Source: a virus (lineage: Duplodnaviria; Caudoviricetes). Taken from it: 64,000 nucleotides of DNA. The stretch's first letter is position 1. Every line of letters begins with the position of its first letter. Below are positions 22,311 through 39,901 of the stretch, piece by piece. Below the pieces are notes generated by a model that ran no database searches, was not told where the DNA came from, and saw only the letters and a list, made by a program, of their open reading frames with translations. The stretch covers positions 1-64,000 of the IMG/VR virus record IMGVR_UViG_3300021431_000096, one strand, 5' to 3'. The position numbers and the translations under genes are program-made.

Positions 22311-22370
22311 AGCTCAAAGTTCAAAGCTCAAAGTTCAAAGCTCAAAGTTCAAAGCTCAAAGTTCAAAGTT
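22305..22370 (+). repeat. Heptamer tandem array (TCAAAG[C/T])n
   Basis: About 9 units directly upstream of ATG 22372; similar arrays at 21270-21298 and 30681-30717. Confidence 0.85.
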
Positions 22371-22371
22371 T

Positions 22372-25300: not shown

Positions 25301-28300
25301 TTCTGTGGAACTTCGAGCAGCGCGTCGATGGCATGGGTACGCAGTACGCCACGAAGCCCATCTGCATCGGCAACCATGCCCGTGGCATCAAGGGTGTGAT
25401 AGAGTTCTATGCCCTGTCCGCCTCGCAGACGCCGAAGAGCGCCTCGATACTCATTCCGCAGGACCTCTACGACAAGAACGGCTACGGTGTGATTCCCACC
25501 AGCGGCTTCACTGACAAGCAGGTGTGGAGCGACGAGAAGTACGACCGCGCCCCGACGGAGCAGCTGCCGTATCAGTGGAACTGGACACGGACGCTCTACG
25601 ACGTGGCCGATGCTAACGGCAAGACCTATGAGGATCATTATCATGTCTCGTCGGTGAAAGGCACCAAGGGTGAGGACGGTGCCGGTGTGGAGTATATCTA
25701 CTGCCGCACAGCCGATGCAAACCCTCCGCAGGGATATCTGAACCATAATGGTAACGTGACAGGGTGGGGACATGTCACAGAGAACGAGGGCAAGACTATC
25801 AATGGCGTTTGGGTTCCGCGCTGCAGGTATGAGGATGACTTTGTGCCTGATGCGAAGACCGTCAGCGGCGTCACCTACACGTGGACCGACAATCCGATGG
25901 GCATTACGCAGGAATATCCCTATGAGTGGGTGTGTGAGCGTAAGAGTGAGTCGTACCTGCTCAACGGCAAGTTCTCCGGCGGACATATCTGGGGAGAGTT
26001 CTCCGCGCCGAAGGAGCGGTCGAAATGGGGCTACAACGGCGAGGACGGCGACGGCACGGAGTATGTGTTCATGCGGACGAGCAAGGACGTGGCCCCGGCG
26101 TTTAGCACCAACGACGTGATTTCCGGCTACACCAGCGACTACAAGAGCGACGAGTGGCGGCCATATATCAATAATAAGGATGCCTGCGGAGCGGAGAGCA
26201 ACCGCACGACCGACGACCCGAAGGGCACCTCCCGCGACTGGCCCTACGAGTGGGTGGCCAAGCGCAACAAGGCCGCTGCCGCCTCGAAGACCGCCGGCGA
26301 GACGCAGGGACAGCGCCAGTGGAAGTCTTATTATGAATGCACTGCAGACAACTCGCACAAGATGTCGAAATGGAGCACCTACTCGACGCTCAGGCTCGAC
26401 ATCGACAACGAGATGGACATGATACCGACGGAGAGCGACAACAAAATCAGTGCCGCCCGCACGGTGCAGACCGTCGTGCATTTCTACGACGGCTCGACGG
26501 AGGTGAACATCAGTGCCGCCACGCTCAGCGTCACGGGAGGCCCCGCCGATAGCATCGCCACTTACAGCCATGCCGCTCAGGGCTATGGACAGAAACTGTC
26601 GTGGTCGTTCATCGCCGGCAAGACGATGGCCGACGCCTATAACATCACCATAGGCTACACCTACAACGGCATCACCTACACGGCGGTATTCACCGTCTCT
26701 GCGTCGAAGGGACAGCGCATCTATCAGCTGCGCCCGAGCCATTCGTCGCTCATCTGCAAGCGCAACACGAACAACACACTGGCCGATCCAGACCCGTTGT
26801 CGCTGATTATCGACCGCATCGACGGCAACAGCACGACACAAATCAGCAGTCCCACAGCGGATGCCACCTATAAGGACGGCGATGTGACGCTGACTGTGAA
26901 ATATAGCACCACGTCGATGCCGACTTCTGCAAGCAGCGGCTCGTCGTGGCCCAAGGCGAACAGCGTGCAGATATCAGGGTCTGGCAGCGTCACGAACGTC
27001 TATCTCGCCCTGTTCAATAGCAGCGGCGTGCTCCTCGACCGCGAGACAGTCCCGGTAGTTCGCGACGGCAAGAACGGCGAGAACACCGTCCGTCTCGACC
27101 TCGACAACGAGAACGACTCGATGCTCTATACGGGTGGCGGCACGCTCGTCAGCGGCAATGTCACTTCGACCGCCTATATGTTCGACGGTGCGAGCGACGT
27201 GTCTGGTTCTACCACGTTCTCCATCAGCGCGAGGGAGGGTTGCACCAGCAGTCAGGCCACCATCAGCGGTCGTGTCATCACCGTGACGGGCATCAACGCG
27301 GCTACGGCAAAAGTCACCGTGCAGGGTGTCTATAAGGACGGCAACAACAATACACATACGAAGACTGCCGTGCTGACGATCAAGAAAATCGTGGACGGCG
27401 ACAAGTACGACCTCGTGATATCGCCGAACGCCATTCCCTACAACGCCACCACGGACACGCCTGCAGAGACCACCGTGTCAATCAAGGTCTACAAGACGTC
27501 GGTGAACAGCAGCGGCGGCGCTACCCGCGCTCTCTCCGCCCCGCCATCCGGCTATAGCGTCTTTGCAGGCAGCATGGCGCTCGACGCCTCGTCGACGGGC
27601 ACCTACTCGACGAAGACGGACAACAGCGAGATAAGTTCGCTGACCGTGAAGATTGCCAAAAGTGCCACCTCTACGGACATCCTCGACATCGAGACCATCC
27701 CCATCGCGAAGGTTGAGAACGGCAAGAGCGTCACGAAGAAGAGCGAGAGCTACCGATATGCGACGAACAGTACCGGCACGCGGCCTGCGGCATCATCGTC
27801 CGACTGGCAGACCACGAAGCCGACGCTGCAGCAGGGCTACTGGCTCTATACCGAGACTACCATCACCTGGAGCGACAACTCGACCACCGTGCTCTACACC
27901 GACGAGCGCAATCCGAACGATGGCGTGGCCGGTCAGGACATCATCGTCGATGGCTCGACCGAGATGAAGTACTACGTGGGCGACTCGAACACGTCGCACC
28001 CTGCCGAGTCGAGCTCAGATTGGAAGGACCTGTCGCAGGTTACGCAGACGCAGGGCAAGTGGCTCTGGTCGAAGGCCACCACCTACTACCGCAAGGCTTC
28101 GTCAGCAGCGGGCAGCAAGGATGCCGGCCATTCGGTGAACTACAACGTGAGCTACATCTCGAAGGACGGTGCCGCAGGTCGTGCCGTAACAGGAATCACG
28201 GAATACTACAAGGCCACCAGCAGCAACGCCGAGATGCCTGTGCCTACGACCGACAGCGGATGGAGCACCAACCCGAACGTGTCGAACTGGGGCGCCACCG

Positions 28301-29766
28301 ACAAGTACCTGTGGAACTACGAGAAGGTGACATACAGCAGCGGCACGACCGTGGAGCGCACCAAGCCGCAGATCGTGGCCATCTGGACGAAGGACGGCAA
28401 GGGTATCGACTCCATCACCAATTATTATAAAATCACCTCGTCGGCCACGGCTCCGTCAAGACCATCCACCGACGGCGGCGACGGCTGGGATGATGACCCG
28501 ACAGCCCCCGGCGCAGGCGAATACCTCTGGAACTACGAGAAAGTGACCTACACCGACGGCTCCGTCTTCCGCTCAGAAGTCCAACTCATCGGACATGTGG
28601 GAAAGGACGGTCAGAATGGCAAAGACGGTAAAGACGGCAAGGATGGCAAGGATGGCAAAGACGGTCAGGACGGAGCAGCAGGCCACGTAGGCCGCTGGTA
28701 CTACTATGCAGGCGAGTGGAATGCCACCACGAAGTATAAGTTCGAGGCGACCAAGGCGCCCTACGTGAAGCGCGGCAGCAACTTCTATATGCTGGACTGC
28801 GCTGCATGGCCGTCCACGCAGCAGTCGAGCTCGACGTACACCAGCAAGGACGAAGACCCGGCCGACTCGGACTTCAACAAGGGCAACCCGTGGAGCCAGA
28901 TGACAGCCGTGTTCAAGTACATCATCACCGAGGCTATCTTTTCTGGTTATGCACATCTCGGCTCGTTCATCATCAACGGCGACTGGCTGATCTCACAGAG
29001 CGGCACCATGTACGGCACCGACGGCTCCGCACACACAATAGGGCCTGGTACTTCGTGGAACTATCCCGGCGGCTCGTACACGATTTACAACTCATACGAG
29101 AAGTTCGACCCGTCGTATCCGAACTCGTCGAAGTCTGGCGTCGTCAACTTCGCCCCGAACTATGCCGTGGACGGCAAGACGGGCAAGACGTATCAGAACG
29201 ATGCGTATGTGAAGGGCACGATAAGTGCCGACGGTTCGTTCATTGCAAAGAACGCCAATGGTGCCGGTGTGGTGATGGTCAACGGTGGCACCACATCCAC
29301 CACGACCAACGAGACGGGCGTTACAGTCCTTGATGCGGCAGGTATCTATTCGCGTACGAATCAAGACGGATTCCGCCTGAACGCCAGCAATGGTCTGCAG
29401 CGATACGACTCGCGTAACGGATGGGGTCCGATGTTTGCCGGGCGCCGCGTGGACAAGGTAACTGCAGCAAAGACGCTCGACGATACCTATGACTTCATTA
29501 TCGCCGACCCGTCGAACTATTCCGGCGGTTTCACCATCACCCTGCCATACAATCCGCCCGACGGAAAAATCATCACTATACAGTGTACGAGTTATGATCG
29601 TTGGGTGGACGTACAGCGGAACACGATTGGCTACATCAAGGTGCTCGGACAGGCATCGGGACTGCCAGCCAATACCTTCGTGAAGGTGAGGATATCCAAC
29701 TTCGAGCGAGGCGAGTTCGTCGCTTTCGGCGGCAACTGGTATGCAACGAAGTCGGCTTGGGATTAA
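22372..29766 (+). CDS. Large tail fibre / central tail protein (~2464 aa)
   Basis: SELEVDFLKVRKKATFMELEIR motif; many YLW.R/YEKVTY repeats; LDLDNE.D repeats; collagen-like GKD repeats at 28600-28680. Start moved past the heptamer array. Confidence 0.8.
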   Translation: MAVTITTAANYWIAPNALTITLNALGEANRIQASVASGAVIMVYMRGIKPADPSDPDTALNGDGLEFDNGHNYRRWPLSISPTYFNSNDEKYIYVAIPRKASVGTDAVVVFPSQKLDIYGYSIKEVPKRNARGQMIDEDGYPTDDITKAVKEEEQDEQLGTDDYWYVWLQGIITETNGTSLRDWDAHCESGYLDSDEAISSLETDWYKWDPISGTVTFLKEIFMDAGSIFSNLKAKVAEIADLNVTNLLDAIKAKIDDIRSHNFEEGLTDGNGFRLTADNGEGNSELEVDFLKVRKKATFMELEIRKETFVGGNQNYSPAGSVIYRVEYLDVNNEPLGYKTKKVPWLLKGFAFLGGPFAGAYHLATKRRVYVGMTDEEWPKCHHFRCYLISDDGTTATRNWWRYGDQAKCQSFNKAASVQSKHDNTYNSGTSVVPDPATPMAEKTYASQPVETSYWWRMVTNTGSKLLEDGYVYDFVDFPYEGWDVVIGGTRHRYSEIEKKGFRDPGSGMPMAGDTLVCIGNRIEEDRMNLINLSTTGDDNDPPSIRGYRGIHNFKMERSNQVFKISPEETLFRSKRFYLLNDDDEAFRVPLERGEWEMGQRYHWYDRVSWDGSIWLCVVADEYVWQDANGNDYRELDVTDIDQGEGSFTYYAYDRQIPDLDEDGREDGDLVYSGTDHYYATGKVGSTTVYKIKVYTYLEPSDEHNAVWLCEVSKGTEITRSEIHYAASLDGINHPDDESDDWKDTIEATGVLAGQYLWTRTTTYYRDKNDPDREPTRTYSVARWGIDGDGISEIDSYYTCMLEEVNDMATYEKTHTVSWYYTFESAIAATGKTIGELQGWYIWEKTQIVYDMAPAPDGSARPKPDLVNYRVSRIGQDGQIGQEEYYCLREYDTYEKAFPPSFDWAAPFDVGIQWYNQRNPAADDWRLFNSDSWVDKICTEQTKQYDPWKQTTRHPNCPVWSPIMPAYDENKPTFKFLWNFEQRVDGMGTQYATKPICIGNHARGIKGVIEFYALSASQTPKSASILIPQDLYDKNGYGVIPTSGFTDKQVWSDEKYDRAPTEQLPYQWNWTRTLYDVADANGKTYEDHYHVSSVKGTKGEDGAGVEYIYCRTADANPPQGYLNHNGNVTGWGHVTENEGKTINGVWVPRCRYEDDFVPDAKTVSGVTYTWTDNPMGITQEYPYEWVCERKSESYLLNGKFSGGHIWGEFSAPKERSKWGYNGEDGDGTEYVFMRTSKDVAPAFSTNDVISGYTSDYKSDEWRPYINNKDACGAESNRTTDDPKGTSRDWPYEWVAKRNKAAAASKTAGETQGQRQWKSYYECTADNSHKMSKWSTYSTLRLDIDNEMDMIPTESDNKISAARTVQTVVHFYDGSTEVNISAATLSVTGGPADSIATYSHAAQGYGQKLSWSFIAGKTMADAYNITIGYTYNGITYTAVFTVSASKGQRIYQLRPSHSSLICKRNTNNTLADPDPLSLIIDRIDGNSTTQISSPTADATYKDGDVTLTVKYSTTSMPTSASSGSSWPKANSVQISGSGSVTNVYLALFNSSGVLLDRETVPVVRDGKNGENTVRLDLDNENDSMLYTGGGTLVSGNVTSTAYMFDGASDVSGSTTFSISAREGCTSSQATISGRVITVTGINAATAKVTVQGVYKDGNNNTHTKTAVLTIKKIVDGDKYDLVISPNAIPYNATTDTPAETTVSIKVYKTSVNSSGGATRALSAPPSGYSVFAGSMALDASSTGTYSTKTDNSEISSLTVKIAKSATSTDILDIETIPIAKVENGKSVTKKSESYRYATNSTGTRPAASSSDWQTTKPTLQQGYWLYTETTITWSDNSTTVLYTDERNPNDGVAGQDIIVDGSTEMKYYVGDSNTSHPAESSSDWKDLSQVTQTQGKWLWSKATTYYRKASSAAGSKDAGHSVNYNVSYISKDGAAGRAVTGITEYYKATSSNAEMPVPTTDSGWSTNPNVSNWGATDKYLWNYEKVTYSSGTTVERTKPQIVAIWTKDGKGIDSITNYYKITSSATAPSRPSTDGGDGWDDDPTAPGAGEYLWNYEKVTYTDGSVFRSEVQLIGHVGKDGQNGKDGKDGKDGKDGKDGQDGAAGHVGRWYYYAGEWNATTKYKFEATKAPYVKRGSNFYMLDCAAWPSTQQSSSTYTSKDEDPADSDFNKGNPWSQMTAVFKYIITEAIFSGYAHLGSFIINGDWLISQSGTMYGTDGSAHTIGPGTSWNYPGGSYTIYNSYEKFDPSYPNSSKSGVVNFAPNYAVDGKTGKTYQNDAYVKGTISADGSFIAKNANGAGVVMVNGGTTSTTTNETGVTVLDAAGIYSRTNQDGFRLNASNGLQRYDSRNGWGPMFAGRRVDKVTAAKTLDDTYDFIIADPSNYSGGFTITLPYNPPDGKIITIQCTSYDRWVDVQRNTIGYIKVLGQASGLPANTFVKVRISNFERGEFVAFGGNWYATKSAWD

Positions 29767-30017: not shown

Positions 30018-30596
30018 ATGATTGACATTAACATTTACGTGAATCAGGGCGTCGAGGCATTCGGCACGACCGGACGGACGCTCACCGTGAACGAACTGCC
30101 CAAGGAAGTCTCGCTCGACTTCGTGGCCGAGGAGCTGCACCACAAGATGCGCCATCTGGAGAAGGACGACATCACGATGGTGCTGTCGCGCTTCCTCGAC
30201 GTGGCGGCACGCATGATGGCCGAGGGATTCGGCATCCAGTACACCAACACCAAGGAGGCCGTGATGATGCGACTCTACACCGACGCCCGGCTCGACCTGC
30301 CGACGAAGAGCATCAACCTGCAGAAGGCGCAGGAGCTGATGCCCGACGTCGTTCACACCGAGCAGGACATGGTGGACCATGCCGTCGAACTCGTGGCGAT
30401 GGTCGGCGTCAGGCTGCGCCCCTACGTCGAGGTGAAGCAGAAGTTCCATGAACTGCTGGCCGACTACAAGCCGAAGTATCAGGTGAAAGATACCGTTGAG
30501 CGGGCCTACGTGGAGAAGAAGGACGGCTCGGGCTCCGGCTCCGACGATAACGGCGGCTCTGATGACAACAACGGCGGCGACTCGCTGGAAGGATAA
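30018..30596 (+). CDS. HU-like DNA-binding protein (divergent)
   Basis: VSLDFVAEEL......L...DI..VL..F.DVAA.MMAEGF.I; acidic Gly-rich tail ending SLEG, like 7732-8220. Confidence 0.55.
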   Translation: MIDINIYVNQGVEAFGTTGRTLTVNELPKEVSLDFVAEELHHKMRHLEKDDITMVLSRFLDVAARMMAEGFGIQYTNTKEAVMMRLYTDARLDLPTKSINLQKAQELMPDVVHTEQDMVDHAVELVAMVGVRLRPYVEVKQKFHELLADYKPKYQVKDTVERAYVEKKDGSGSGSDDNGGSDDNNGGDSLEG

Positions 30597-30721
30597 ACCA
30601 AAACACAGAGATACATAGACACAGAGATTAAAGAAAGAAAAGCTCTGTACCTCTGTACCTCTGTGTTGAAAAAAAGTAATCATAAAGCTCAAAGTTCAAA
30701 GTTCAAAGCTCAAAGTCCACT

Positions 30722-32239
30722 ATGGCAGTATCAGATGATTTCCGCAAGCAATGGCTCGAAATGGAGGAGCAGTACGGCAAGAACATCGAGCTGGGCGACA
30801 TCCAGAAGATGGAGGTCGGCCAGGTCGACGAGACCGTCTCCATGCCCGCCGTGAAGTTCACCGACCAGACGCTCACCGTCTTCCAGGAGTACCGTCACGT
30901 GCCGATGAACACGTTCATGAAGCCCATCACCGACAAGGTGGCCGAGGCCGAGACGCGAGTGACAAAACTGGAAAGCGACGTCAGCACCGCCGTCACCCAG
31001 GCCAATGCCGCCCGCGACAATGCCAACAACGCTGCCGGGCGCGTGGACACCAGTATTGCCAATGCCAATGCTGCCGCCGCCACCGCCAACGCCGCCGCGC
31101 AGAACGCCGACTCCTCCCGTCAGGCCATCGAGGCCAACGAATCGACGCGACAGACCAACGAATCGACGCGCCAGTCGCAGGAATCTACACGCCAGAGTCA
31201 GGAGGCCACACGTCAGGCTCAGGAATCGACGCGGCAGTCGCAGGAATCCACCCGTCAGAGTCAGGAGTCCGCCCGTGAGACTCGTGCCACCAGCGACCAC
31301 AACCGTGCCGAGACTGACCATACCACTGCCACCACGGATCACTCGACGGCTACCAGCGACCACAGCCGCGCCGAGACCGACCACACCGCCAGCGTCAGCG
31401 CCACCAGCGAGGCGTCGAACGTCAATGCGCAGCTGGAGGGCATGACCGTGACCATCACCAACCGCAGCGGCGTGCAGACGAGCGTGAACATCGGCTTCGA
31501 GATTTACCGCACCTACACGTCCGTCGCAGCCATGCAGGCCGACGCCGCCAACGTGCCGCAGGCCAAGTTCGTGATAATTGCCACCACCGATGCCACCGAC
31601 CCCGACAACGCGAAGCTCTACGCCAAGAACGCCGCAGGAGGCTTCACCTTCCTCAGCGACCTCGACCAGGCATCGAGCGCAGCCTTCGCCGACTGGCTGG
31701 AGAACTACAAGCCCGTCATCGAGGCCGACCACACGCAGGCAGGACTCGACCATCAGCAGGCTGTCAGCGACCACTCGACTGCTGCCAGCGACCATACGCA
31801 GGCCGGCACCGACCATGCCCGCGCCGAGAGCGACCACACCACGTCGCAGACCGCCTCCGGCTATGCCAACGAGCAGGGCGACTATGCCAAGAACATGGCC
31901 GACCACCCCGCCTACCTCGCCGACGGCACCGCCGCCCATCCAGGCGATGCTGGCTATCTCTACACGTGGGACTACGCCCGGCAGCAGTATGTGAAGGGCG
32001 CACGCATTTCGCTCGACTTCGATTCGATGACGCCCGAGCAGAAGGAAGAGTTGGCTGATGCCGTACTCGCCGCCATCGGATTCGACACCGTTCCGACGGA
32101 AAACTCCGACAAGGCCGTTACCAGCGGCGGGCTATATATCGCATTTCAGAATGTCAATACCGCTCTCGCCGGCAAACAGGACACGCTGACGTTTGCCACC
32201 GACGCAACCTGCGAGGCCATCATCGACGAACTCGTCTAA
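30722..32239 (+). CDS. Coiled-coil fibre-like structural protein
   Basis: Heptad repeats ESTRQSQ and xDHxxAx; DTVPTENSDKAVTSGG motif; C-terminal ATDATCEAIIDELV. Confidence 0.7.
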   Translation: MAVSDDFRKQWLEMEEQYGKNIELGDIQKMEVGQVDETVSMPAVKFTDQTLTVFQEYRHVPMNTFMKPITDKVAEAETRVTKLESDVSTAVTQANAARDNANNAAGRVDTSIANANAAAATANAAAQNADSSRQAIEANESTRQTNESTRQSQESTRQSQEATRQAQESTRQSQESTRQSQESARETRATSDHNRAETDHTTATTDHSTATSDHSRAETDHTASVSATSEASNVNAQLEGMTVTITNRSGVQTSVNIGFEIYRTYTSVAAMQADAANVPQAKFVIIATTDATDPDNAKLYAKNAAGGFTFLSDLDQASSAAFADWLENYKPVIEADHTQAGLDHQQAVSDHSTAASDHTQAGTDHARAESDHTTSQTASGYANEQGDYAKNMADHPAYLADGTAAHPGDAGYLYTWDYARQQYVKGARISLDFDSMTPEQKEELADAVLAAIGFDTVPTENSDKAVTSGGLYIAFQNVNTALAGKQDTLTFATDATCEAIIDELV

Positions 32240-32302
32240 CGTCGTTGTCCCATTTTCGCAGAAGCATTTTGTAACTTAGCATCAGCAAAAGTACAAAGGA
32301 AT

Positions 32303-33001
32303 ATGGTAACGACAATCAACATACCAGTGGTGCCGCCGGGGACGGATTTGAAGTTCCGCGTGACGGTGACAAAGGAAAACTTCGACCTGACACGCGACCC
32401 GTTCAACATCGTCATCAAGAACAGTTGGGGTCGCGTGGTGGCCCGCTTGCTGAAGAGTGACTGCTATCAGGACTCTGAGGGCCGCTGCTATTTCAATATA
32501 GATAATGTAAAGGAGGGCGAGTACATGGCCGTGTTCGTCGGTGCCTATGCCGATGCCGACTACGCCAAGCAGCATCGCATGTGGAACGACCGCCAGCCGC
32601 TCTACATCGGCAGCAACGACTGCGAGACCACGAAGCGGCACTGCTGCGACGGGCATCCCGTCGAGTATGAGCAGATATGGACGGTGAACGTCAGCGACGG
32701 CGAGTATCTGGCCGACAGCGACGGCAACTTTGTCTATACCTCCGACGGCCAGCGCATCTCGTTCAGCGACCGCTCGACTGCTGACGGTAAGGTGCGCCTC
32801 TCGATGACTGGCGACGAGTTTCTCAAGCTCATCGAGGGCCGCGAACCAAACAGCGAGGTGAACACCATTCCGGAGATGATGGACGTGATGCGCGGCATCA
32901 CTGACGACGAGACCATCCCGCAAAAGATTCAGCAGGAAATCGACGGGAGTCAGGAGGAGAATGAGGCGAGCGACGCCGACATCGACAGCATTTTCGACTA
33001 A
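32303..33001 (+). CDS. Structural protein with C-terminal ASDADIDSIFD motif
   Basis: GTDLKFRVTV...F N-terminus (Ig-like, inferred); preceded by a GTCCC promoter at 32247-32279. Confidence 0.65.
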   Translation: MVTTINIPVVPPGTDLKFRVTVTKENFDLTRDPFNIVIKNSWGRVVARLLKSDCYQDSEGRCYFNIDNVKEGEYMAVFVGAYADADYAKQHRMWNDRQPLYIGSNDCETTKRHCCDGHPVEYEQIWTVNVSDGEYLADSDGNFVYTSDGQRISFSDRSTADGKVRLSMTGDEFLKLIEGREPNSEVNTIPEMMDVMRGITDDETIPQKIQQEIDGSQEENEASDADIDSIFD

Positions 33002-33013
33002 AAAAATAACGAT

Positions 33014-33316
33014 ATGGCAACGACAGACAAATATCCAAGCTACCTGCCCGAGGACTTCAAGGGACTGGAGTCGATTCAGGAGGGCAACCAGCGGTACTAC
33101 TATAAGACGGTGGACGGGCAGAATCTGCTCATCGGCGCTATCGTCGGCAAGCGGCATTTGGTGATCCGCTTTCCCGAGGGTTCGACTATCGACGTGATTC
33201 CGAAGGACTCGGTCGGCACGGACGAGATCAAGGACGGCGGCGTGCATCAGGAGGATCTTGACCCAAACATCGAGGCCGCCGATGACGACATCGACAATAT
33301 TTTCAATAATCAATAA
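33014..33316 (+). CDS. Small structural protein with C-terminal ADDDIDNIF motif
   Basis: DSVGTDEIKDGGV fibre-type repeat. Confidence 0.65.
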   Translation: MATTDKYPSYLPEDFKGLESIQEGNQRYYYKTVDGQNLLIGAIVGKRHLVIRFPEGSTIDVIPKDSVGTDEIKDGGVHQEDLDPNIEAADDDIDNIFNNQ

Positions 33317-33322
33317 GGCGAT

Positions 33323-33622
33323 ATGAACAAGACAAAGGAATTGGAACTTTTCAAAATGTCCGACGGGTTCTGGGCAGGACACCAGACCGCAGACGGAAAA
33401 CGCATGAAGGCGGGCGCTCACAAAATCACCGCCGAGGAAATCATGACGATGTTCACCGAGTTCTTTCAGGACTACTGCAAGGAAACTGGCGAGTCGAAGC
33501 TGCTGATGCAGGACGGAAGCGGCAGACTGTTCGTCACGATGCGGGTGCCAGACAAGCAGGCAGAAAAGCCGAAGAAGTCCGCACAAAAGCCAGCACACAA
33601 GAAGCGCAAGGCTAAGAAATAG
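33323..33622 (+). CDS. Hypothetical protein with basic C-terminus
   Basis: GGCGAT-ATG start; internal ITAEEIMTMF motif. Confidence 0.65.
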   Translation: MNKTKELELFKMSDGFWAGHQTADGKRMKAGAHKITAEEIMTMFTEFFQDYCKETGESKLLMQDGSGRLFVTMRVPDKQAEKPKKSAQKPAHKKRKAKK

Positions 33623-33715
33623 CCCGCACACCAACCAACAATATCCAACACAAGATAGAATGAGACTAAATCTCAGCATAGTTCACTGATTTATTAACTA
33701 AAATTTGTTTGCATT

Positions 33716-34687
33716 ATGGCAATTACAAATCCAACCAAGTACGTTTCCGTACAAAGACTGAGCCGCTTCGAGGCTAAGCTCGCTCAGAAGTATCAGACAC
33801 AGGCCATCACCGCCATCACTGGTCTGAATGCAGAAACCGTAGAGGCCGCTCTGGCTGAGTTGCTCGGCAAGATCAACGCGCTCCCCAGCGCCATCATCCC
33901 CAAGGGCTCCAAGGCTTTCGCAAGCCTCGCTCCCTCGACCGACCTGGCTGCTGCCAACCTCGGCTTCATGTGGAACATCACGGACGCCTTCACCACCACA
34001 GCCGACTTCGCCGAGGGCGCTGGCCACAGCATCCCCGCTGGAGCCAACGTGTATGTGGCCAACGTAGGCACCGCCGCTGAGCCCGTCTACAAGTACGACA
34101 TCTTCGCCGGCATGTACGACCTCTCAGGCTACGCCCTGAAGAGCGAGATGTCTATCACCGACGGTGAGGGTGCCGACGCCGACAAGACCACTATCCAGCT
34201 GAAGAGCGGTCTGTCGAAGCAGGTGCTCATCGCCCACCAGGACATCAGCGGCAAGGCCGACAAGGTGGCTTCTGCTACCAGCGGCAACCTCGCCGGACTG
34301 GACGGCAACGGCAACCTGACCGACTCTGGCATCGCAGCTACTGACGTGGCTACTATCGACGCCGACGCCGTGGAGGGCAACATCGCCGAGTTCGACGCCA
34401 ACGGCAACCCCGTGGACAGCGGTCACGCACTCTCTGAGTACAAGACCAAGCAGACGGCTGTGGCTGATGCTGACGCCACCACCAGCGGCAACGACACGAC
34501 CTTCGTGGACAGCGTGACACAGGACACCAACGGCGAGATCTCCGTCCACAAGAAGACCGTTCCCAACGTGTCTGCCTCTACCTCTGGCGCAGGCGGCACC
34601 AACGGCCTGATGCTCGCCACCGACAAGGAGAAGCTCGACCTGCTGCTGGAGTGCTCCGACGACGACATCGACAGCATCTTCGCGTAA
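33716..34687 (+). CDS. Fibre-like structural protein
   Basis: HQDISGKADKV..ATSGNLAGLDGNGNLTDSG and GLMLATDKEKLD fibre repeats; N-terminal KYVSVQRLSRF..KL and C-terminal SDDDIDSIFA. Confidence 0.75.
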   Translation: MAITNPTKYVSVQRLSRFEAKLAQKYQTQAITAITGLNAETVEAALAELLGKINALPSAIIPKGSKAFASLAPSTDLAAANLGFMWNITDAFTTTADFAEGAGHSIPAGANVYVANVGTAAEPVYKYDIFAGMYDLSGYALKSEMSITDGEGADADKTTIQLKSGLSKQVLIAHQDISGKADKVASATSGNLAGLDGNGNLTDSGIAATDVATIDADAVEGNIAEFDANGNPVDSGHALSEYKTKQTAVADADATTSGNDTTFVDSVTQDTNGEISVHKKTVPNVSASTSGAGGTNGLMLATDKEKLDLLLECSDDDIDSIFA

Positions 34688-34699
34688 TCTCTCTATCCC

Positions 34700-34734
34700 A
34701 GGTCAGCAGGGTTCGACTCCCTGCTGGCTTGCCA
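34700..34734 (+). other. tRNA-minihelix-like hairpin (12-bp stem, UUCGACU loop, 3' GCCA)
   Basis: AGGTCAGCAGGG-TTCGACT-CCCTGCTGGCTT-GCCA. Confidence 0.5.
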
Positions 34735-34757
34735 AACATTTTAAAACATCAAGAGAT

Positions 34758-34895
34758 ATGGCACTAACAAACGAAACAAAGTACGTGACCGTGCGACGGC
34801 TCAATCGGTTCCGTAACAAACTGAGGGCAGAACTGCCGAGTACGACCGTTGCATCCGACGCCACCTGCGAGGCCATCGTCGACGAACTCGTCTGA
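34758..34895 (+). CDS. 45-aa putative adaptor peptide (absent from the ORF track)
   Basis: MALTNETKYVTVRRLNRFRNKLRAELPSTTVASDATCEAIVDELV; N-terminus resembles 33716, C-terminus is near-identical to that of 30722-32239. Confidence 0.8.
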   Translation: MALTNETKYVTVRRLNRFRNKLRAELPSTTVASDATCEAIVDELV

Positions 34896-34933
34896 CGCCG
34901 TGACATTTGTATAACCAATAAAAAGAAAAGAAT

Positions 34934-35839
34934 ATGGCAGATGAATTAGAGAACAACGGCCAGCAGGTGCAGGGCACCAGTGGCCATGAGAGCGAGACCG
35001 TCAGCGTCGGCGGCCTGAAAGCCTCGCTGCAGAAACTGAAGACCGACCACATCGACACGAAGTACACGAAGCCGTCAGGCGGCATTCCGTCCACGGATAT
35101 GACCTCGGCGGTGCAGTCGTCCCTTGGCAAGGCCGACGCCGCCAAGGCACTCCTCGACGACATCGTGCCCGCACAGGCGTCGGATCAGAACCAGCTTGCC
35201 GACAAGAGCTTTGTCAACTCGTCGGTTTCGACGGCAACGGCCACCCATCGCGGCACGTTCAACCTCGTCAGCGACCTCTCGCTGACCGTTTCGGCCACGC
35301 AGTCGCAGATTGCCACCGCACTCGGCACCGCCATCCAGACGGCAGACAACAACGACTACGCCTTCGTACAGGTGCCGACGGCCGACGACAATCCGACGGA
35401 GATTGCCCGCGTGGACCGCTACAAGCATAACGGCACGGCATGGGCGTTCGAGTACAGTCTGAACAACTCTGGCTACACCGCCGCGCAGTGGGCAGCCATC
35501 AACTCGGCCATCACCAGCGCGAAGGTGAGCGGATATGACTCGCACGTTGGCAACTCCGATATTCACGTGACCACGCAGAACAAGACGGCGTGGAACGCCA
35601 AGTACGACAAGCCCAGTGGCGGCATACCAAAGACAGACCTTTCCAGCGGCGTGCAGTCATCCCTGGATAAGGCCGACGCTGCCGCCCCGCAAAGCACCAC
35701 CTACTCGAAGACCGAGGTCGACCAGAAGTTCGACGAGTTCGCTGGTCCGACCTACGATCCCGCCACGCGGGCCATCATCTTCCCCGCCACGGCGAAGGTG
35801 TCATACGACGCCGCCAACCGCGCCGTCGTCTTCGGATAA
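34934..35839 (+). CDS. Fibre-like structural protein
   Basis: Two KY.KPSGGIP.TD....VQSSL.KADAA repeats; QASDQNQLADKSFVNSS and AAQWAAINS motifs. Confidence 0.75.
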   Translation: MADELENNGQQVQGTSGHESETVSVGGLKASLQKLKTDHIDTKYTKPSGGIPSTDMTSAVQSSLGKADAAKALLDDIVPAQASDQNQLADKSFVNSSVSTATATHRGTFNLVSDLSLTVSATQSQIATALGTAIQTADNNDYAFVQVPTADDNPTEIARVDRYKHNGTAWAFEYSLNNSGYTAAQWAAINSAITSAKVSGYDSHVGNSDIHVTTQNKTAWNAKYDKPSGGIPKTDLSSGVQSSLDKADAAAPQSTTYSKTEVDQKFDEFAGPTYDPATRAIIFPATAKVSYDAANRAVVFG

Positions 35840-35875
35840 GCAGTACAAGTATTCACTCATTAATTTATAAGCATT

Positions 35876-37285
35876 ATGGCACAGGAATTTGACATTTTGA
35901 AAATCGGAGGCGTTCCCATCAACGCCTGCGACGTCGTGGCACGCCAGCGCATCGACGAGCTGGCAGCAGCCAGCGGCGTGACCTACTTCGGCCGCGTGTG
36001 GAACCTCCAGAACTCCACGCCCGTGGCCGACCACTACATCGGCAACCTCGCCTTCGGACAGCAGCTGCCCGAATGGCTCGGACTGGGCTGCTACATCGTG
36101 AAGAACGACCACAGCCGTAAGAAGCTGATGGCCGACAACCATTATAAGTACGAGAACGGTGCTCCCGCCAAACTGGATGGTACAGAAGGCCATTACCAGT
36201 GGGGATGGGGCAAGAAGTTCTATATCGTGGTGAAACAGCAGGGCGACGAGCTGGCGCTGATTATTGCCAAGGGCAAGATTCCCGGCGAGGTGAACTACAC
36301 CATTCCCGTGGCCTCTGAGTCTGCGGCTGGATGGGCTACGATGGAACGCAGCACTGGTAAGCTGGTAAGCTACATCAATATGGGTGCCGACTACCGTGGT
36401 GGTAACAACGACAGCAGTCGTGACGGACAGTATAACACTATGCTCGGACGCCCTGCATCTTCTATGACTACCAACGCATTCCTGACTGCCGCCCGCCTGA
36501 ATGGCGACGGATGGCTGGGTGCAAGTATGCGCTTTGACTGCGTGAAGGCCATACTCTTCTACGTCATCTTCGGTAACCTGAACGTACAGGCCGCCTATAA
36601 TGCCAATAAGGACGCCAATGGACTGTATCAGGGCGGACTTGGTACTGGTCCTACCAATGCAGGCGGTTGGTGGGGAGCCAACTGGGACTATTATCCCGTG
36701 TTCCCACTGAGTGCAGGTATAGAGTTGGGCGACCGTTGTGGCGTGTTCAACTATGTAGTGAAGGACGGTGAGGACAATACGTTGCAGACCATGCAGGGTA
36801 CCTGTTTCTTCGGATTGAAGAACGGCATGGGCGGTATCATGTGGAAGATGATGACCGACGAGTTGCTGCAGTGTAATGAGGATAAGAGTCAGACGCACCT
36901 GATAGCCGAGAAGATTTGTAAGGTGGACGGCAATTACACCTACAGCATCGGCAACAGCGCTACGGGCTTTAAGGTTGGTGGTACCACACCTGCTTATGAG
37001 AGTGCTGCATGGAACAGTATCAGCCGCGTGCTCTTCAAGAATCTTGAGCTGCTGCCTATCGGTGTCGGTCAGACCAATCGCTTCAGCGATGATTATTACA
37101 ATCCTGCTATAACCTCCGGGTTCCGTCTTGTGCTCCGTTCCGGCTCTCTGGACCATGGTGGTCGGTGTGGCCTTTCGTTTGTCCTTGGTTACATTGGTGT
37201 CGGGAATGCCTATGCGTACGGCGGGTCGTCGCTCTGCGAAGTGACCGAGGAGTGGAGCGTGGACGGAGAGTACGTCGAGGTCTAA
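35876..37285 (+). CDS. DGR target protein (probable receptor-binding protein with C-terminal variable region)
   Basis: Carries the VR at 37114-37234; the G.R...R.G.......CG........G.......G..LC pattern fits C-type-lectin/FGE-like DGR targets. Confidence 0.9.
   Translation: MAQEFDILKIGGVPINACDVVARQRIDELAAASGVTYFGRVWNLQNSTPVADHYIGNLAFGQQLPEWLGLGCYIVKNDHSRKKLMADNHYKYENGAPAKLDGTEGHYQWGWGKKFYIVVKQQGDELALIIAKGKIPGEVNYTIPVASESAAGWATMERSTGKLVSYINMGADYRGGNNDSSRDGQYNTMLGRPASSMTTNAFLTAARLNGDGWLGASMRFDCVKAILFYVIFGNLNVQAAYNANKDANGLYQGGLGTGPTNAGGWWGANWDYYPVFPLSAGIELGDRCGVFNYVVKDGEDNTLQTMQGTCFFGLKNGMGGIMWKMMTDELLQCNEDKSQTHLIAEKICKVDGNYTYSIGNSATGFKVGGTTPAYESAAWNSISRVLFKNLELLPIGVGQTNRFSDDYYNPAITSGFRLVLRSGSLDHGGRCGLSFVLGYIGVGNAYAYGGSSLCEVTEEWSVDGEYVEV
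37114..37234 (+). repeat. DGR variable repeat (VR)
   Basis: 121-bp match to TR with 15 mismatches, all at TR adenines. Confidence 0.97.
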
Positions 37286-37342
37286 GGATTACGATGTGGT
37301 CAATGTGTTCAACAGGTGACAAAGGTTAACAAAAAGGGGGCA

Positions 37343-37372
37343 AGCACGCCCCGCCCCAAAGCGGGGCGTGCT
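37343..37372 (+). other. GC-rich perfect hairpin/cruciform between VR and TR
   Basis: AGCACGCCCCGC-CCCAAA-GCGGGGCGTGCT, extendable by AAGGGG/CCCCTT. Confidence 0.7.
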
Positions 37373-37411
37373 CCCCTTCGCTCTAAAAAACATGGTAGCT
37401 CTCGTTAAAGA

Positions 37412-37532
37412 CTCCGGGTTCCGTCTTGTGATCCGTTCCGGCAATCTGAACAATGGTGGTCAGTGTGGCCTTTCGATTGTCAATGGTAACAATGGTGTCG
37501 GGAATGCCAATGCGAACAACGGGTCGTCGCTC
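37412..37532 (+). ncRNA. DGR template repeat (TR)
   Basis: Ten AAY codons plus ATC, CAG and ATT in the VR frame (23 adenines); lies just upstream of the RT. Confidence 0.97.
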
Positions 37533-37687
37533 ATCTTTATTGGAATATTCAAAAATATACATTGGACGACGAGAGTGCCACGCCTCATGGCGGAAAATAA
37601 ACTGGGGGTGCAAGTGTTGGTAGGCTCACGCGGAAGGACCGTAACAGAGTGCGAAGACAGGAGCATCTAATGAATAAAGCAGAATAG

Positions 37688-39220
37688 ATGAAGACGATAA
37701 AACGACTATCGGACGACATAGCGACTGTCAATAATTTCATCGAAGCGCATGAGAACTACACAGAGACAAAGCCTTATAGGACTGATATCCGTGAGTTTGA
37801 AAGCAACTTCACTGCAAACATCAGAACACTTCTTAGAGCATATAACCTTGGCAACTGGGTGCCACCAGAATACGAAGAGCGTACTATCGTAGAACATAAC
37901 AAGCTACGGAAACTTGGTGTTTATCCTGCGGCAGAGCACAATATAGAATGGGCAGCACTGAATTATCTGGAGAAACCGTTGACCGATACATACATCCGCA
38001 ACTCTTGCGCCTGCGTCAGAGGACGAGGACAGAATGACTTTATTGATATCATATCCCGCGCCATGCGCAACAGTTATGATGACACACGCTACGGCGTGCA
38101 ACTGGATGCGCACCACTACTTTCAACTGATAGATCACAATATCATAGAGTGTGTGCTTGAAAGGAAGATCAAGGACGAAAGGTTGATGCGGTTACTGCAC
38201 AATATCCTGAGTTCTTTCATGAACGGATTGGTGCTCGGTACTAAACTCAGCCAGATAGAGGCGAACTTCCAACTGTCGCCCTTTGACCACGGAGCACAAT
38301 CATTATGGGGTGTTCGCAACGATGTGGAGAAGATGTGTTACTGGCGCCGAAGATATGTTGACTGGTGCATAGCAACCGTGCGAACCAAGGAACAGGCCGA
38401 GGAGCTCGCCAAGGGCGTGCAGTACCTGAACGCGAAGTTCGACAGCCTTGTGGACAAGGGCGTGTTCTATGCCAGGTTTGCCGACAACATCATCATGCTC
38501 TCTGGAGACAAGGCATTCTTGCATATCGTCACCGAAATTGCCATTATGGTGCTGGCACGGGACTATCACTATCAAACTAACAAGTCGTGGAATGTCCGAC
38601 CTGTTGAACCCGATGGCATAGACATCTGCGGTTATGTATTACATCATTATTATAGAAAAGTAAGAAAACGCATTAAACAAGATTTATGGAGAGAGGTCAT
38701 ACAGCTTCGCAAAAAAGGGAAATCGCCAGAGGAAATACGCCTGGCATGTGCCTCGCGTATTGGGTGGCTAACGCATGGCGACTGTAGGAACCTTCTCAGG
38801 AAAATGAATGTCAATATGGAAGAACGGCTTGGCGATAAGATTAAGAAAAAGAGAATAATGATTCCTTTTGAAGGTATGACGAAAGAACAGCGACGTTCTA
38901 TCGAGGACTTTCTTTGTTATACTGACGAAGACGAAAATGATAAGATGATTCTCCTTTTGGAATATACTGTCGGCAAGTCGATATTTCCAGGAAAAGAAAA
39001 CCGTGCTGCGTTAAGGTTCAAAACTTCAAACGGAATCATTCGTCATCCCGATGGTACCACAGAGCATCAGTGGAGTGAAGAGGAACTTTACGCATGGACT
39101 GGTTCACAAATACTGATAGAACAGATGTTGCAGGAGTTCTCACCAGAAGATTTGCCTGCGCCGACGGCCATTCACGAAAACACGAACAAATACGGAAAGA
39201 AATATTATAAGTTCACTTAA
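37688..39220 (+). CDS. DGR reverse transcriptase with a C-terminal extension
   Basis: SCACVRGRG, QLDAHHYFQLIDH, GLVLGTKLSQ..AN, ARFADN, GIDICGY; adjacent to TR/VR. Confidence 0.93.
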   Translation: MKTIKRLSDDIATVNNFIEAHENYTETKPYRTDIREFESNFTANIRTLLRAYNLGNWVPPEYEERTIVEHNKLRKLGVYPAAEHNIEWAALNYLEKPLTDTYIRNSCACVRGRGQNDFIDIISRAMRNSYDDTRYGVQLDAHHYFQLIDHNIIECVLERKIKDERLMRLLHNILSSFMNGLVLGTKLSQIEANFQLSPFDHGAQSLWGVRNDVEKMCYWRRRYVDWCIATVRTKEQAEELAKGVQYLNAKFDSLVDKGVFYARFADNIIMLSGDKAFLHIVTEIAIMVLARDYHYQTNKSWNVRPVEPDGIDICGYVLHHYYRKVRKRIKQDLWREVIQLRKKGKSPEEIRLACASRIGWLTHGDCRNLLRKMNVNMEERLGDKIKKKRIMIPFEGMTKEQRRSIEDFLCYTDEDENDKMILLLEYTVGKSIFPGKENRAALRFKTSNGIIRHPDGTTEHQWSEEELYAWTGSQILIEQMLQEFSPEDLPAPTAIHENTNKYGKKYYKFT

Positions 39221-39247
39221 TATTCATCATTTTAAAATGTTTTGATT

Positions 39248-39901
39248 ATGAAAACAAGAAGTTATCAGTCAGGTTTGACTTACGAAAAGTATGATCGCGA
39301 CCACATTGCAATCTACTTCAACGAGACAACAAAGGAAGTGCCTTCGGGTAATGATAGGGAATCGACACAGGTAGAGTATGAATACGATACTGTGCTTGTG
39401 GCTGCTGAGACTCCTTCAGTAGAGGCATTTGCAGCAGCCCTTGTGGCTAATGGCATAGCCTTGCTTGATGCACAGGCTATTGCTACGGGTATTATCTTTG
39501 CTTCAATCCAAAAGGGGCAGTTGGAGGGTGATGAGCTTGCTGCAGCCAAGGAGATGGTACGAGCCAAGATTACTGCCTACGACTCGTCATCGGCAGTTAA
39601 TGAGTTTACCTATCAGGGAACGCCGATGTGGCTTGACAAAGACACACGTGCAGGTTTGATGCTGCGACTGAATGCCGAACAGGCTGGTGGTCACGAAAAC
39701 ACAACGTTATGGTATGGCACACAATCCTTCTCGTTGCCTGTAAGCAGTGCTATACAGATGCTTACCGCATTGGAACTTTACGCATCGGCTTGCTTCGACA
39801 TGACGGAAGAGCACAAAGCCGCTGTTGATGCCAAACACACGGTTAACACCGTATTGGCATACGATTATACGCAAGGCTATCCCGAAAAGCTGGCTTTCTA
39901 A
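39248..39901 (+). CDS. DUF4376-like tail-fibre-associated protein
   Basis: I.AYDSS.AVNEF...G..MWLDK.TR.GL...L..LELYA..CFD.T..HKAAV...YDYT.GYPEKL.F. Confidence 0.75.
   Translation: MKTRSYQSGLTYEKYDRDHIAIYFNETTKEVPSGNDRESTQVEYEYDTVLVAAETPSVEAFAAALVANGIALLDAQAIATGIIFASIQKGQLEGDELAAAKEMVRAKITAYDSSSAVNEFTYQGTPMWLDKDTRAGLMLRLNAEQAGGHENTTLWYGTQSFSLPVSSAIQMLTALELYASACFDMTEEHKAAVDAKHTVNTVLAYDYTQGYPEKLAF

What the first reader, a model, noticed from the sequence alone, without database searches (positions are those of the whole stretch)
30722..35960. Chain of fibre genes with matching N- and C-terminal 'docking' peptides, including a 45-aa gene made of only the two motifs
Seen: consecutive proteins end in an acidic amphipathic helix: ATDATCEAIIDELV (30722), ASDADIDSIFD (32303), AADDDIDNIFNNQ (33014), CSDDDIDSIFA (33716), ASDATCEAIVDELV (34758). 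Several begin with a basic helix: TKYVSVQRLSRFEAKL (33716), TKYVTVRRLNRFRNKL (34758), TVSVGGLKASLQKL (34934). The unlisted ORF 34758-34895 is just the N-motif plus the C-motif. 34934 ends with a different motif (YDPATRAIIF...YDAANRAVVFG), and the DGR target begins ILKIGGVPINACDVVARQRI. Inference: a modular head-to-tail coupling code, analogous to PKS docking domains, that assembles long or branched fibres ending in the DGR-diversified tip; the tiny gene would be an adaptor or extender.
Basis: partly seen in the sequence, partly recalled or inferred. Interest (0 to 1): 0.85.

Follow-up and report, generated by a model that had tools for sequence, protein, structure and literature searches.

The report
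Docking-peptide code joining phage fibre segments
In a 93-kb phage of rumen Prevotella-like bacteria, successive tail-fibre proteins carry short matching end-pieces, and a conserved 45-residue protein made only of two such end-pieces probably works as an adaptor that plugs the hypervariable (DGR) fibre tip onto a second stalk; co-variation across related phages and a structure model support this, but no experiment has tested it.

Summary
Five acidic helix motifs sit 1-4 residues before stop codons. They occur only in this operon of the 93-kb phage genome.

The unlisted 45-aa ORF (34758-34895) is a real gene. It follows fibre B in 37 related loci and varies mostly at third codon positions.

It consists of the N-module of fibre B plus a C-tail. 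In 17 of 18 related phages that tail is of the same type as the tail of fibre A, 2.6 kb upstream. It also tracks the N-terminus of the next fibre gene. At least eight tail types exist, and they swap often relative to the conserved core.

A 3+3 complex model places the mini-protein's tail (residues 29-45) in parallel against residues 13-39 of the next fibre protein. The score was 0.87 and the best control 0.00.

A distant phage (L077) obeys the same rules with a different N-module.

Best reading (about 0.6): C-tails dock onto the N-modules of other proteins (heterotypic docking), and the mini-protein converts one specificity into another.

The DID.IF tails are a separate class from the TCEAI.DEL tails.

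Nothing has been tested experimentally. Nearest precedents are multi-segment fibres and the docking peptides of Klebsiella phages.

The parts
30722..32239 (+). Fibre A (505 aa). It has a conserved N-terminus, a repeat-rich shaft (21-nt tandem repeats at 31124-31291) and a C-tail of type X1 at 32192-32236.
   Evidence: Its tail type matches the mini protein's tail in related loci.
32303..33001 (+). 232-aa protein: an Ig-like beta-sandwich (residues about 15-105), a low-confidence acidic linker, and a D tail (DID.IF) at 32963-32998.
   Evidence: Structure model: pLDDT 73-90 for residues 20-100 and under 50 beyond residue 145. The fold search gave only weak matches to generic beta-sandwiches.
33014..33316 (+). 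100-aa protein: a small beta meander (residues 19-52), a flexible linker, and a D-like tail at 33272-33313.
   Evidence: In locus L025 its homologue carries a type-7 tail. In L077 it carries a hairpin-type tail, which matches the changed N-modules of that phage.
33323..33622 (+). 99-aa protein with a lysine-rich C-tail. It is conserved between the 100-aa gene and B. Its role is unknown.
   Evidence: No family was found.
33716..34687 (+). Fibre B (323 aa): N_B module (residues 1-26, 33716-33793), a variable shaft, and a D tail at 34649-34684.
   Evidence: More than 1000 homologues have nearly invariant termini. RNA-library contigs cover this gene.
34700..34734 (+). Conserved 12-bp hairpin with the invariant loop GGTTCGACTCC. 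In this window it is followed by GCCA. It mimics the acceptor/T-arm minihelix of a tRNA and sits just 3' of gene B.
   Evidence: Present once in 60 of 72 loci. 96.6% of cells are paired, and 9 of 12 pairs show compensatory change.
34758..34895 (+). Mini adaptor gene (45 aa): N_B module (residues 1-27) plus an X1 tail (residues 29-45, 34842-34892).
   Evidence: Found in 37 loci, plus L076 and L077. Variation is mostly at third codon positions. The tail forms the modelled interface.
34934..35839 (+). Fibre C (301 aa): N_C module (residues 13-39, 34970-35050), a shaft, and a double-hairpin tail at 35744-35836.
   Evidence: The N_C type follows the X tail type.
35876..37285 (+). DGR target protein (469 aa), the presumed distal receptor-binding piece. 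VR at 37114-37234.
   Evidence: Matches phrog_5302 'tail protein', E 2.4e-44. VR/TR comparison.
37412..37532 (+). DGR template repeat.
   Evidence: 88% identical to the VR. All 15 differences fall on TR adenines.
37688..39220 (+). DGR reverse transcriptase (510 aa).
   Evidence: phrog_1423, E 2.1e-57.

Best explanation
The operon encodes a multi-segment tail fibre. Its pieces are joined by short terminal modules. Each C-tail is a short strand, a Ser/Thr helix cap and a two- to three-turn acidic amphipathic helix (or, in another class, one or two beta-hairpins). As a trimer, the tail packs in parallel against the N-module of the next piece, which is a strand, a turn and a helix. This gives a lap joint. 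Several specificity classes exist.

In this window the pairings would be as follows. The X1 tail, carried by fibre A and by the 45-aa protein, docks on the N_C module of fibre C (34934). The DID.IF tail, carried by the 232-aa, 100-aa and B proteins, docks on the N_B module carried by B and by the 45-aa protein. The double-hairpin tail of C docks on the N-terminus of the DGR target.

The 45-aa protein is therefore a code-converting adaptor. It occupies an N_B-type attachment site and presents an X1 tail. The same C-plus-DGR tip can then be mounted both on fibre A and on the B-type stalk.

What is shown: the motifs, the conservation, the co-variation, and a confident model of the X1/N_C joint. 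What is inferred: the DID.IF/N_B and hairpin/N_D pairings, trimeric stoichiometry, presence in virions, and the overall topology.
For: 1. The motifs are terminal and confined to this operon.

2. The mini gene sits just after B in 37 loci, and also in L076 and L077. Differences by codon position are 3071/2126/7269, and invariant residues are encoded by 3-5 different codons.

3. The mini tail is of the same type as the tail of the upstream A-position protein in the same phage. Alignment scores are 44-103, against 30 or less for other ORFs. The match holds in 17 of 18 distinct phages.

4. On the tree of the intervening gene B, the mini tail type changes at least 15 times among 36 phages. In the window-versus-L007 comparison, the core between the two tails is 80-97% identical while the flanks are 45-68% identical.

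5. A proteins of types X1 and X2 are homologous up to the tail and differ only in the last 10 or so residues.

6. Each tail type goes with one N-module type in the following gene, with no exception seen.

7. Complex model of 3 x C(1-75) plus 3 x mini: ipSAE 0.87/0.86/0.87, best of 3 controls 0.00. The calibration mark was reached by 58 of 80 solved complexes and by 2 of 110 mismatched pairs. Contacts agree at 87% or more, and the partner's pLDDT is at least 76. The interface is mini residues 29-45 against C residues 13-39, in parallel register. The N_B half of the mini protein is not involved.

8. L077 is a distant phage found through N_C, not through B. Its A tail, mini tail and next N-module are all X1/N_C. 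Its mini N-module copies the different N-module of its own B-like gene. The tail of its 100-like protein has changed to the hairpin class, which elsewhere precedes that N-module class.

9. Other proteins consist of two modules only: N_C plus a hairpin tail in 63 and 74 aa (L013, L050), and 56-96-aa proteins with a type-8 tail.
Against: There is no experimental evidence of binding, of virion incorporation or of trimer state.

The complex model is a prediction. Amphipathic helices are easy to bundle, and no non-cognate tail was tested as a control because only one job was available.

The match between the mini tail and the next N-module is confounded by adjacency (13-70 nt apart). The formal independent-pairs test on the B tree has at most 4 pairs per type and cannot reach significance.

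There are exceptions. In L022, A is type 1 and the mini is type 4. L029 has no A-type partner. Types 5, 6 and 7 have no upstream twin.

No fused 'Rosetta-stone' protein joining a tail to an N-module was found.

The DID.IF/N_B pairing rests on analogy and on a single co-switch, in L077.
Confidence: 0.6

Rival explanations
1. The terminal motifs are only folding or trimerisation caps of each fibre, like the fibritin foldon. The 45-aa protein is then a stub, or a plug of a B-type socket. Tail matching would reflect common descent, linkage or gene conversion rather than binding between different proteins.
For: Similar helix tails and N-motifs occur on single fibre proteins of unrelated phages. The double-hairpin tail resembles a foldon in size and position (own knowledge). 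The independent-pairs test is underpowered.
Against: Caps would not need to match between A and the mini protein across a conserved 2.6-kb core while switching type at least 7-8 times. The two tails in one phage differ at several residues and are only 86% identical in DNA, so recent gene conversion is unlikely. The model places the tail on another protein's N-module, with controls at 0.00. The 232-aa and 100-aa proteins carry the tail on a disordered linker, not at the end of a fibre shaft.
Confidence: 0.15
2. Joints are like-with-like. The mini tail would co-assemble with the identical-type tail of A, and the mini N-module with the N-module of B. The mini protein would then be a splint tying the distal end of A to the start of B.
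For: Most tail types, and the N_B module, occur in at least two proteins per genome. The mini protein is exactly N(B) plus C(A).
Against: Some tail types occur only once in a genome and still sit before their usual N-module (type 7 in L010 and L048; the hairpin tail in this window). The model puts the tail on N_C rather than leaving it free. This pairing was not itself modelled.
Confidence: 0.08
3. The conserved ends are mainly DNA-level homology patches that allow cassette exchange of fibre modules. The 45-aa ORF would be a tolerated recombination scar.
For: Mosaic boundaries fall at the module edges. Identity drops right after the N_B part of the mini gene. Tail types are shuffled frequently.
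Against: Variation in the mini gene is mostly at third codon positions, and invariant residues are encoded by 3-5 codons. Selection therefore acts on the protein, not on the DNA. A scar would not keep a tail that matches gene A in 17 of 18 phages. This rival is compatible with docking and could be true as well.
Confidence: 0.07
4. The 45-aa protein binds the N-module of fibre C only transiently. It would act as an assembly chaperone or as a competitor that regulates how many C-plus-DGR tips attach to fibre A. It would not be part of the virion.
For: The evidence is the same as for docking. The N_B half has no modelled partner yet.
Against: The N_B half is as conserved as the N_B module of B. 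It changes together with the B-like N-module in L077. This argues that the N_B half has its own binding site.
Confidence: 0.1

Closest known systems
Branched receptor-binding proteins of Klebsiella podophages (KP32, K11, KP34): the RBP1 branching domain plus the conserved N-terminal docking peptide of RBP2
   Same: A short conserved terminal peptide (about 29 residues) is necessary for mounting one fibre or spike protein on another. It is portable between proteins (PMC13352976, PMC6872550).
   Different: In the Klebsiella phages the acceptor is a globular T4gp10-like domain and the donor peptide is N-terminal. Here both partners are short strand-helix modules and the donor is C-terminal. Several specificity classes coexist here, and free-standing two-module adaptor proteins exist. 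No T4gp10-like domain was detected.
T4 long tail fibre (gp34-gp35-gp36-gp37)
   Same: Several gene products are joined end to end into one fibre, with small connecting proteins between the large segments (own knowledge).
   Different: There is no sequence relationship. T4 joints are not described as interchangeable peptide classes. T4 has no protein made of just two docking modules.
Docking domains of modular polyketide synthases
   Same: C-terminal helices of one subunit pack on an N-terminal coiled coil of the next. Compatibility classes set the order of subunits (own knowledge).
   Different: This is an analogy only: an unrelated protein family, an enzymatic assembly line rather than a virion, and dimeric rather than presumably trimeric.
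Bordetella phage BPP-1 Mtd on its tail fibres
   Same: A DGR-diversified receptor-binding protein is a separate gene product mounted on the distal end of a fibre (own knowledge).
   Different: No peptide code or adaptor mini-protein is known there. The target here matches only a generic phage tail family (phrog_5302).
T4 fibritin foldon
   Same: A short C-terminal beta-hairpin element at the end of a trimeric fibre. It resembles the double-hairpin tail of 34934 in size and position (own knowledge).
   Different: The foldon acts within its own trimer. Here tail classes track the N-module of another protein.

Membership tests
Diversity-generating retroelement with a phage tail-fibre target | A reverse transcriptase gene next to the target | tested here: met
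   37688-39220 matches phrog_1423 reverse transcriptase, E 2.1e-57.
Diversity-generating retroelement with a phage tail-fibre target | A TR/VR pair that differs only at TR adenines, with the VR at the 3' end of the target gene | tested here: met
   VR 37114-37234 and TR 37412-37532 are 88% identical. All 15 differences fall on TR adenines.
Klebsiella-type branched RBP system (anchor, branching domain, conserved peptide) | A T4gp10-like branching domain in the primary RBP | tested here: not met
   No Pfam family at E up to 0.1 in any of the ten operon proteins, beyond chance-level hits. No relative among PDB sequences.
Klebsiella-type branched RBP system (anchor, branching domain, conserved peptide) | A short conserved terminal peptide that mediates mounting of the secondary protein | tested here: inconclusive
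   Conserved terminal modules and a confident interface model exist. However, the donor is C-terminal and no binding was measured.
T4-type long tail fibre proteins | Sequence homology to gp34-gp37, or the Pfam phage tail-fibre repeat | tested here: not met
   No Pfam hit. PF03406 appears only in distant, longer shaft relatives of B.
Trimeric phage fibre proteins (generic) | Fibre shaft repeats shared with known phage tail proteins | tested here: met
   34934 matches phrog_27373 'tail protein', E 1e-16, and a shaft repeat of PDB 6r5w Gp15. B shares shaft repeats with long fibre proteins.
Trimeric phage fibre proteins (generic) | Trimeric state | not testable with these tools
   The complex was modelled as 3+3 by assumption.
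tRNA or tRNA-like RNA (for the hairpin at 34700-34734) | Recognised by a tRNA finder or an Rfam model | tested here: not met
   ARAGORN finds no gene. Rfam has no match at gathering score. The best sub-threshold hit is mascRNA at 18.3 bits, against 42.5 needed.
tRNA or tRNA-like RNA (for the hairpin at 34700-34734) | A conserved structure with T-loop sequence and a 12-bp acceptor/T-arm-like stack | tested here: met
   The invariant GGTTCGACTCC closes a 7-nt loop. The stem is 12 bp and 96.6% paired, and 9 of its pairs show double changes. The covariation score is 0.711 against 0.274 when shuffled.

The most novel reading that the evidence does not exclude
A family of at least six mutually orthogonal tail/N-module pairs forms a general plug-and-play code for building multi-segment and branched fibres in phages of Bacteroidota. 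Free-standing two-module mini-proteins (45-96 aa) act as code converters. Whole receptor-binding assemblies, DGR tips included, could then be re-plugged in nature, and by design, by exchanging peptides of about 15 residues.
Probability: 0.45. Interest if true: 0.8.

Novelty: new variant of a known kind. Interest (0 to 1): 0.68.

Why it matters
Tail fibres set the host range of a phage, and how multi-protein fibres are put together is known for only a few model phages.

If short, class-specific terminal peptides decide which fibre segment mounts on which, three things follow. First, the many small unannotated ORFs in fibre operons of gut and rumen phages gain a function as adaptors. Second, fibre architecture becomes predictable from sequence. 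Third, the peptides would be compact connectors for re-targeting phages of Bacteroidota, much as the docking peptide of Klebsiella phages is now used.

It would also show how a DGR-diversified tip can be shared between two stalks.

Tried and rejected
- Searching viral contigs with the DGR target protein found no relative.
- A megablast of the operon against deposited phage records gave only a 92-nt match.
- Pfam found nothing meaningful in the ten proteins.
- PDB sequence searches with B and C found only one shaft repeat.
- I looked for Rosetta-stone fusions among longer relatives of B. All 120 listed were shaft relatives from other phages, and none joined a tail to an N-module.
- A near-length search with the 45-aa protein found only 7 proteins, probably because such small ORFs are rarely called. 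It says little about spread.
- The independent-pairs test of A tail against mini tail on the B tree has too few pairs (4 or fewer per type) to be significant.
- A scan with the type-2 N-module returned only contigs already held.
- Fold searches of the 232-aa and 100-aa models found no match at E 0.001 or better.
- The Atlas look-up of the 99-aa protein gave only unnamed viral clusters below 0.9.
- RNA-library contigs do not cover the mini gene, C or the DGR target. This is no evidence that they are silent.
- I considered the hairpin as an attP or tRNA fragment and rejected it. Both stem arms co-vary between phages, and the 5' arm is contiguous with the T-arm, which is not the case in a tRNA gene.
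- Stop-codon read-through or an alternative genetic code could have explained seven genes sharing one frame. I did not pursue it, because the stops are mostly TAA and every gene has its own conserved start.
- The look-up of earlier findings of this scan returned nothing.
Full report
OBSERVATION. A loose pattern for the acidic tail matches five times in the six-frame translation of the window. Each match is in the coding frame of one of the genes starting at 30722, 32303, 33014, 33716 and 34758, and each ends 1-4 residues before the stop. A broader tail pattern run on the whole phage genome hits only this operon. The basic N-motif occurs at the start of 33716 and of the unlisted 45-aa ORF 34758-34895. 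That ORF is exactly the N-motif plus a tail. The 3' ends of gene 30722 and of the mini ORF are 86% identical over 58 nt.

CONTEXT.
- The window is the first 64 kb of a 93,359-bp virus record judged about 95% complete.
- Relatives lie on contigs labelled Prevotella sp. and uncultured Prevotellaceae, one of them beside an integrase.
- The stretch is found in goat, bovine and other gut metagenomes.
- The phage is far from deposited phages, and most of its proteins match no family.
- The operon ends in a DGR: a target gene (35876-37285), a VR/TR pair whose 15 differences all fall on TR adenines, and a reverse transcriptase.

I use these names:
- A = 30722-32239
- B = 33716-34687
- mini = 34758-34895
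- C = 34934-35839

THE MINI GENE IS REAL. B has more than 1000 homologues, with nearly invariant first 26 and last 12 residues. I fetched 72 related loci. In 37 of them a small ORF directly follows B and starts with the same N-module. Among 38 distinct 5' parts of this ORF, differences by codon position are 3071, 2126 and 7269. Invariant residues are encoded by 3-5 different codons. Selection therefore acts on the peptide.

MODULE ANATOMY.
- The helix tails share one framework: a short hydrophobic strand, Ala/Cys-Ser/Thr as a helix cap, then an acidic amphipathic helix. The DID.IF tail of the 232-aa, 100-aa and B proteins is a short version of this framework.
- The A proteins of the window (type X1) and of L007 (type X2) are homologous up to the cap and differ only in the last ten or so residues.
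- The N-modules of B, mini and C also share a framework: strand, turn, helix.
- Other tail classes exist. These include one or two beta-hairpins (the end of C) and at least four further types.

CO-VARIATION.
- The mini N-module is constant, but its tail falls into at least eight types.
- Wherever enough upstream DNA is held, the tail of the A-position protein in the same phage is of the same type. Alignment scores are 44-103, against 30 or less for every other ORF.
- This holds in 17 of 18 distinct phages. The exception is L022.
- On a tree of gene B, which lies between the two tails, the mini tail type changes at least 15 times among 36 phages. In the 18-phage subset the mini type changes 8 times and the A type 7 times.
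- Window and L007 are 80-97% identical from 32800 to 34700, but only 45-68% identical in A and after the N-module of the mini gene. Two variable flanks thus co-vary across a conserved core.
- The formal independent-pairs test has too few pairs to be significant.
- The mini tail type also maps one-to-one onto the N-module of the following gene, with no exception seen: type 1 with GLKASLQKLK, type 2 with LGGMM.HVE, type 4 with EDMQ.FG, and so on. Adjacency confounds this, so the match with the distant A tail is the informative one.

COMPLEX MODEL. I used the single job on three copies of C(1-75) plus three copies of mini, each with a small alignment of type-1 relatives.
- The model supports binding; it does not show it.
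- The score was 0.87 (runs 0.87, 0.86, 0.87) and the best of 3 controls 0.00.
- The calibration mark was reached by 58 of 80 solved complexes and by 2 of 110 mismatched pairs. These counts hold only roughly here, because my own alignments and multiple copies were used.
- The runs agree in at least 87% of contacts, and the partner's pLDDT is at least 76.
- The interface is mini residues 29-45 (the tail) against C residues 13-39 (the N_C module).
- Contact indices rise together (C21 with mini32, C31 with mini37/38, C34 with mini41, C33 with mini44). The joint is therefore a parallel lap of strand on strand and helix on helix.
- The N_B half of mini is not in the interface.

In the model, mini Ile40/Val41 and Cys37 touch the small residues Gly27, Ala30 and Ser31 of C. 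In types 2 and 4 the tail has Ala-Ala at those positions, and the N-module has Lys-His or Ala-Phe. This looks like size compensation. It is my inference from anchored alignments and standard residue volumes, not a tool result.

AN INDEPENDENT CASE. Searching viral contigs with the N_C module alone found L077, a distant phage.
- Its B-like gene has a different N-module and no DID.IF tail.
- Its 62-aa mini gene still combines a copy of that different N-module with a type-1 tail.
- Its A protein ends in a type-1 tail, and the next gene starts with N_C.
- The different N-module belongs to the class that elsewhere follows hairpin tails: the DGR-target N-terminus here, and the 620-aa and 355-aa proteins of L001 and L006.
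- In L077 the 100-aa homologue has exchanged its DID.IF tail for a single hairpin unit.
- This is one co-switch between non-adjacent genes. It is the only direct support for the DID.IF/N_B pairing.
- Tails are also portable in L025, where the 100-aa homologue carries a type-7 tail.

Other proteins made of two modules only exist. N_C plus a hairpin tail makes up 63 and 74 aa in L013 and L050. Proteins of 56-96 aa carry a type-8 tail that recurs on the protein before the distal gene.

CARRIERS OF THE DID.IF TAIL. The 232-aa protein models as an Ig-like sandwich (residues about 15-105) followed by a low-confidence acidic region. The 100-aa protein models as a small beta meander, a linker and a short terminal helix. 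Neither matches a solved fold at E 0.001. These proteins therefore carry the tail on a flexible tether, like a short linear motif.

MOST LIKELY MECHANISM (confidence about 0.6).
- C-tails dock on N-modules of matching class.
- A (X1) mounts C, and C (hairpin tail) mounts the DGR target.
- The mini protein sits with its N_B module wherever B's N_B module sits and presents a second X1 tail. The same C-plus-DGR tip is then mounted on two stalks.
- The DID.IF tails of the 232-aa, 100-aa and B proteins would fill N_B modules of B and mini. One possible chain is therefore 100-aa or 232-aa protein, then B, then mini, then C, then the DGR target.
- Shown: motifs, conservation, co-variation, and one confident model. 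Inferred: everything else, including trimers and virion presence.

RIVALS.
- Caps that act only within their own trimer. This is hard to square with the matching across the conserved core and with tails on disordered tethers.
- Like-with-like joints. Some tail types occur only once in a genome, which argues against this.
- DNA homology patches for cassette exchange. This is compatible with docking, but it does not explain selection at the protein level.
- A transient chaperone or regulator role for the mini protein. This is not excluded.

KNOWN COMPARATORS. [quoted passage not shown] There the acceptor is a globular T4gp10-like domain, which is absent here. T4's multi-protein long fibre and the docking domains of polyketide synthases are analogies from my own knowledge. 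The chain-like fibres of phage A1002 are built differently, as dimers on a rope protein. I found no paper that describes peptide classes or two-module adaptors in fibres. I therefore rate this a new variant of a known kind.

SEEN IN PASSING.
- Just after B lies a hairpin with the invariant loop GGTTCGACTCC and a 12-bp co-varying stem, followed here by GCCA. It occurs once in 60 of 72 loci.
- The hairpin mimics a tRNA acceptor/T-arm minihelix, but no tRNA or Rfam family is called. L077 has a plain GC hairpin with a U-rich tract at the same place.
- Contigs from three RNA libraries of two studies cover gene B: 33710-34666 and shorter pieces.
- Heptamer arrays (CAAAGYT) lie directly before the starts of three structural genes.

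Noticed in passing
window 34700-34734 (+); the same place in 60 of 72 related loci: A hairpin lies directly 3' of gene B. It has an invariant 11-nt T-loop-like sequence (GGTTCGACTCC) and a 12-bp stem, with compensatory changes in 9 of 12 pairs. Here and in many loci it is followed by GCCA. It looks like a tRNA acceptor/T-arm minihelix, so it may be a 3'-end, processing or terminator element. L077 has an ordinary GC hairpin plus a U-rich tract at this position.
   Followed up: partly
window 21279-21297, 22315-22368, 30690-30715 (+): Tandem arrays of the heptamer CAAAGYT (12 matches, 0.29 expected by chance) lie immediately upstream of the start codons of three structural genes: 21300, the giant protein, and fibre A. 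A similar array sits between B and the mini gene in L029. They may be a leader or regulatory element.
   Followed up: partly
window 22288-29766 (+): The listed start of the 2492-aa ORF reads through the heptamer array. The likely true start is the ATG at 22372, giving 2464 aa. The protein contains a GKDGKDGKDG collagen-like run and matches only weak 'tail protein' families.
   Followed up: partly
window 7732-8220 and 30018-30596 (+); also the 180-aa protein of L018 and the 190-aa protein of L020: Unrelated-looking proteins end in a Gly/Asp/Asn-rich linker followed by a terminal ...LEG motif. This may be another terminal signal, for docking or cleavage.
   Followed up: no
loci L007, L029, L038, L043 (homologues of the 232-aa and 100-aa proteins): In some relatives the DID.IF motif is not terminal. 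It is followed by a Gly-rich spacer and a second acidic ending (...EEGD).
   Followed up: no
window 33710-34666: Contigs assembled from three metatranscriptome libraries (two studies) cover gene B almost exactly from its start codon to just before its stop. The DNA run of the likely source sample covers the whole stretch evenly.
   Followed up: partly
window 31124-31291 and 31286-31840 (+): Fibre A contains two sets of 21-nt (7-residue) tandem repeats, one of the ESTRQSQ type and one of the TSDH..AE type. This fits a coiled-coil shaft whose length could vary.
   Followed up: no
window 30722-39901 (+): Nine of the ten consecutive genes from A to 39242 are in the same reading frame. Only the 45-aa gene is in another. 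The stops are mostly TAA and each gene has its own start, so I treated this as coincidence or as a trace of modular exchange.
   Followed up: no
window 14528-14938 (+): A small protein ends in an acidic tip with ...PLPF. It resembles a single-stranded-DNA-binding protein with the usual C-terminal tip. This is my reading of the sequence only.
   Followed up: no
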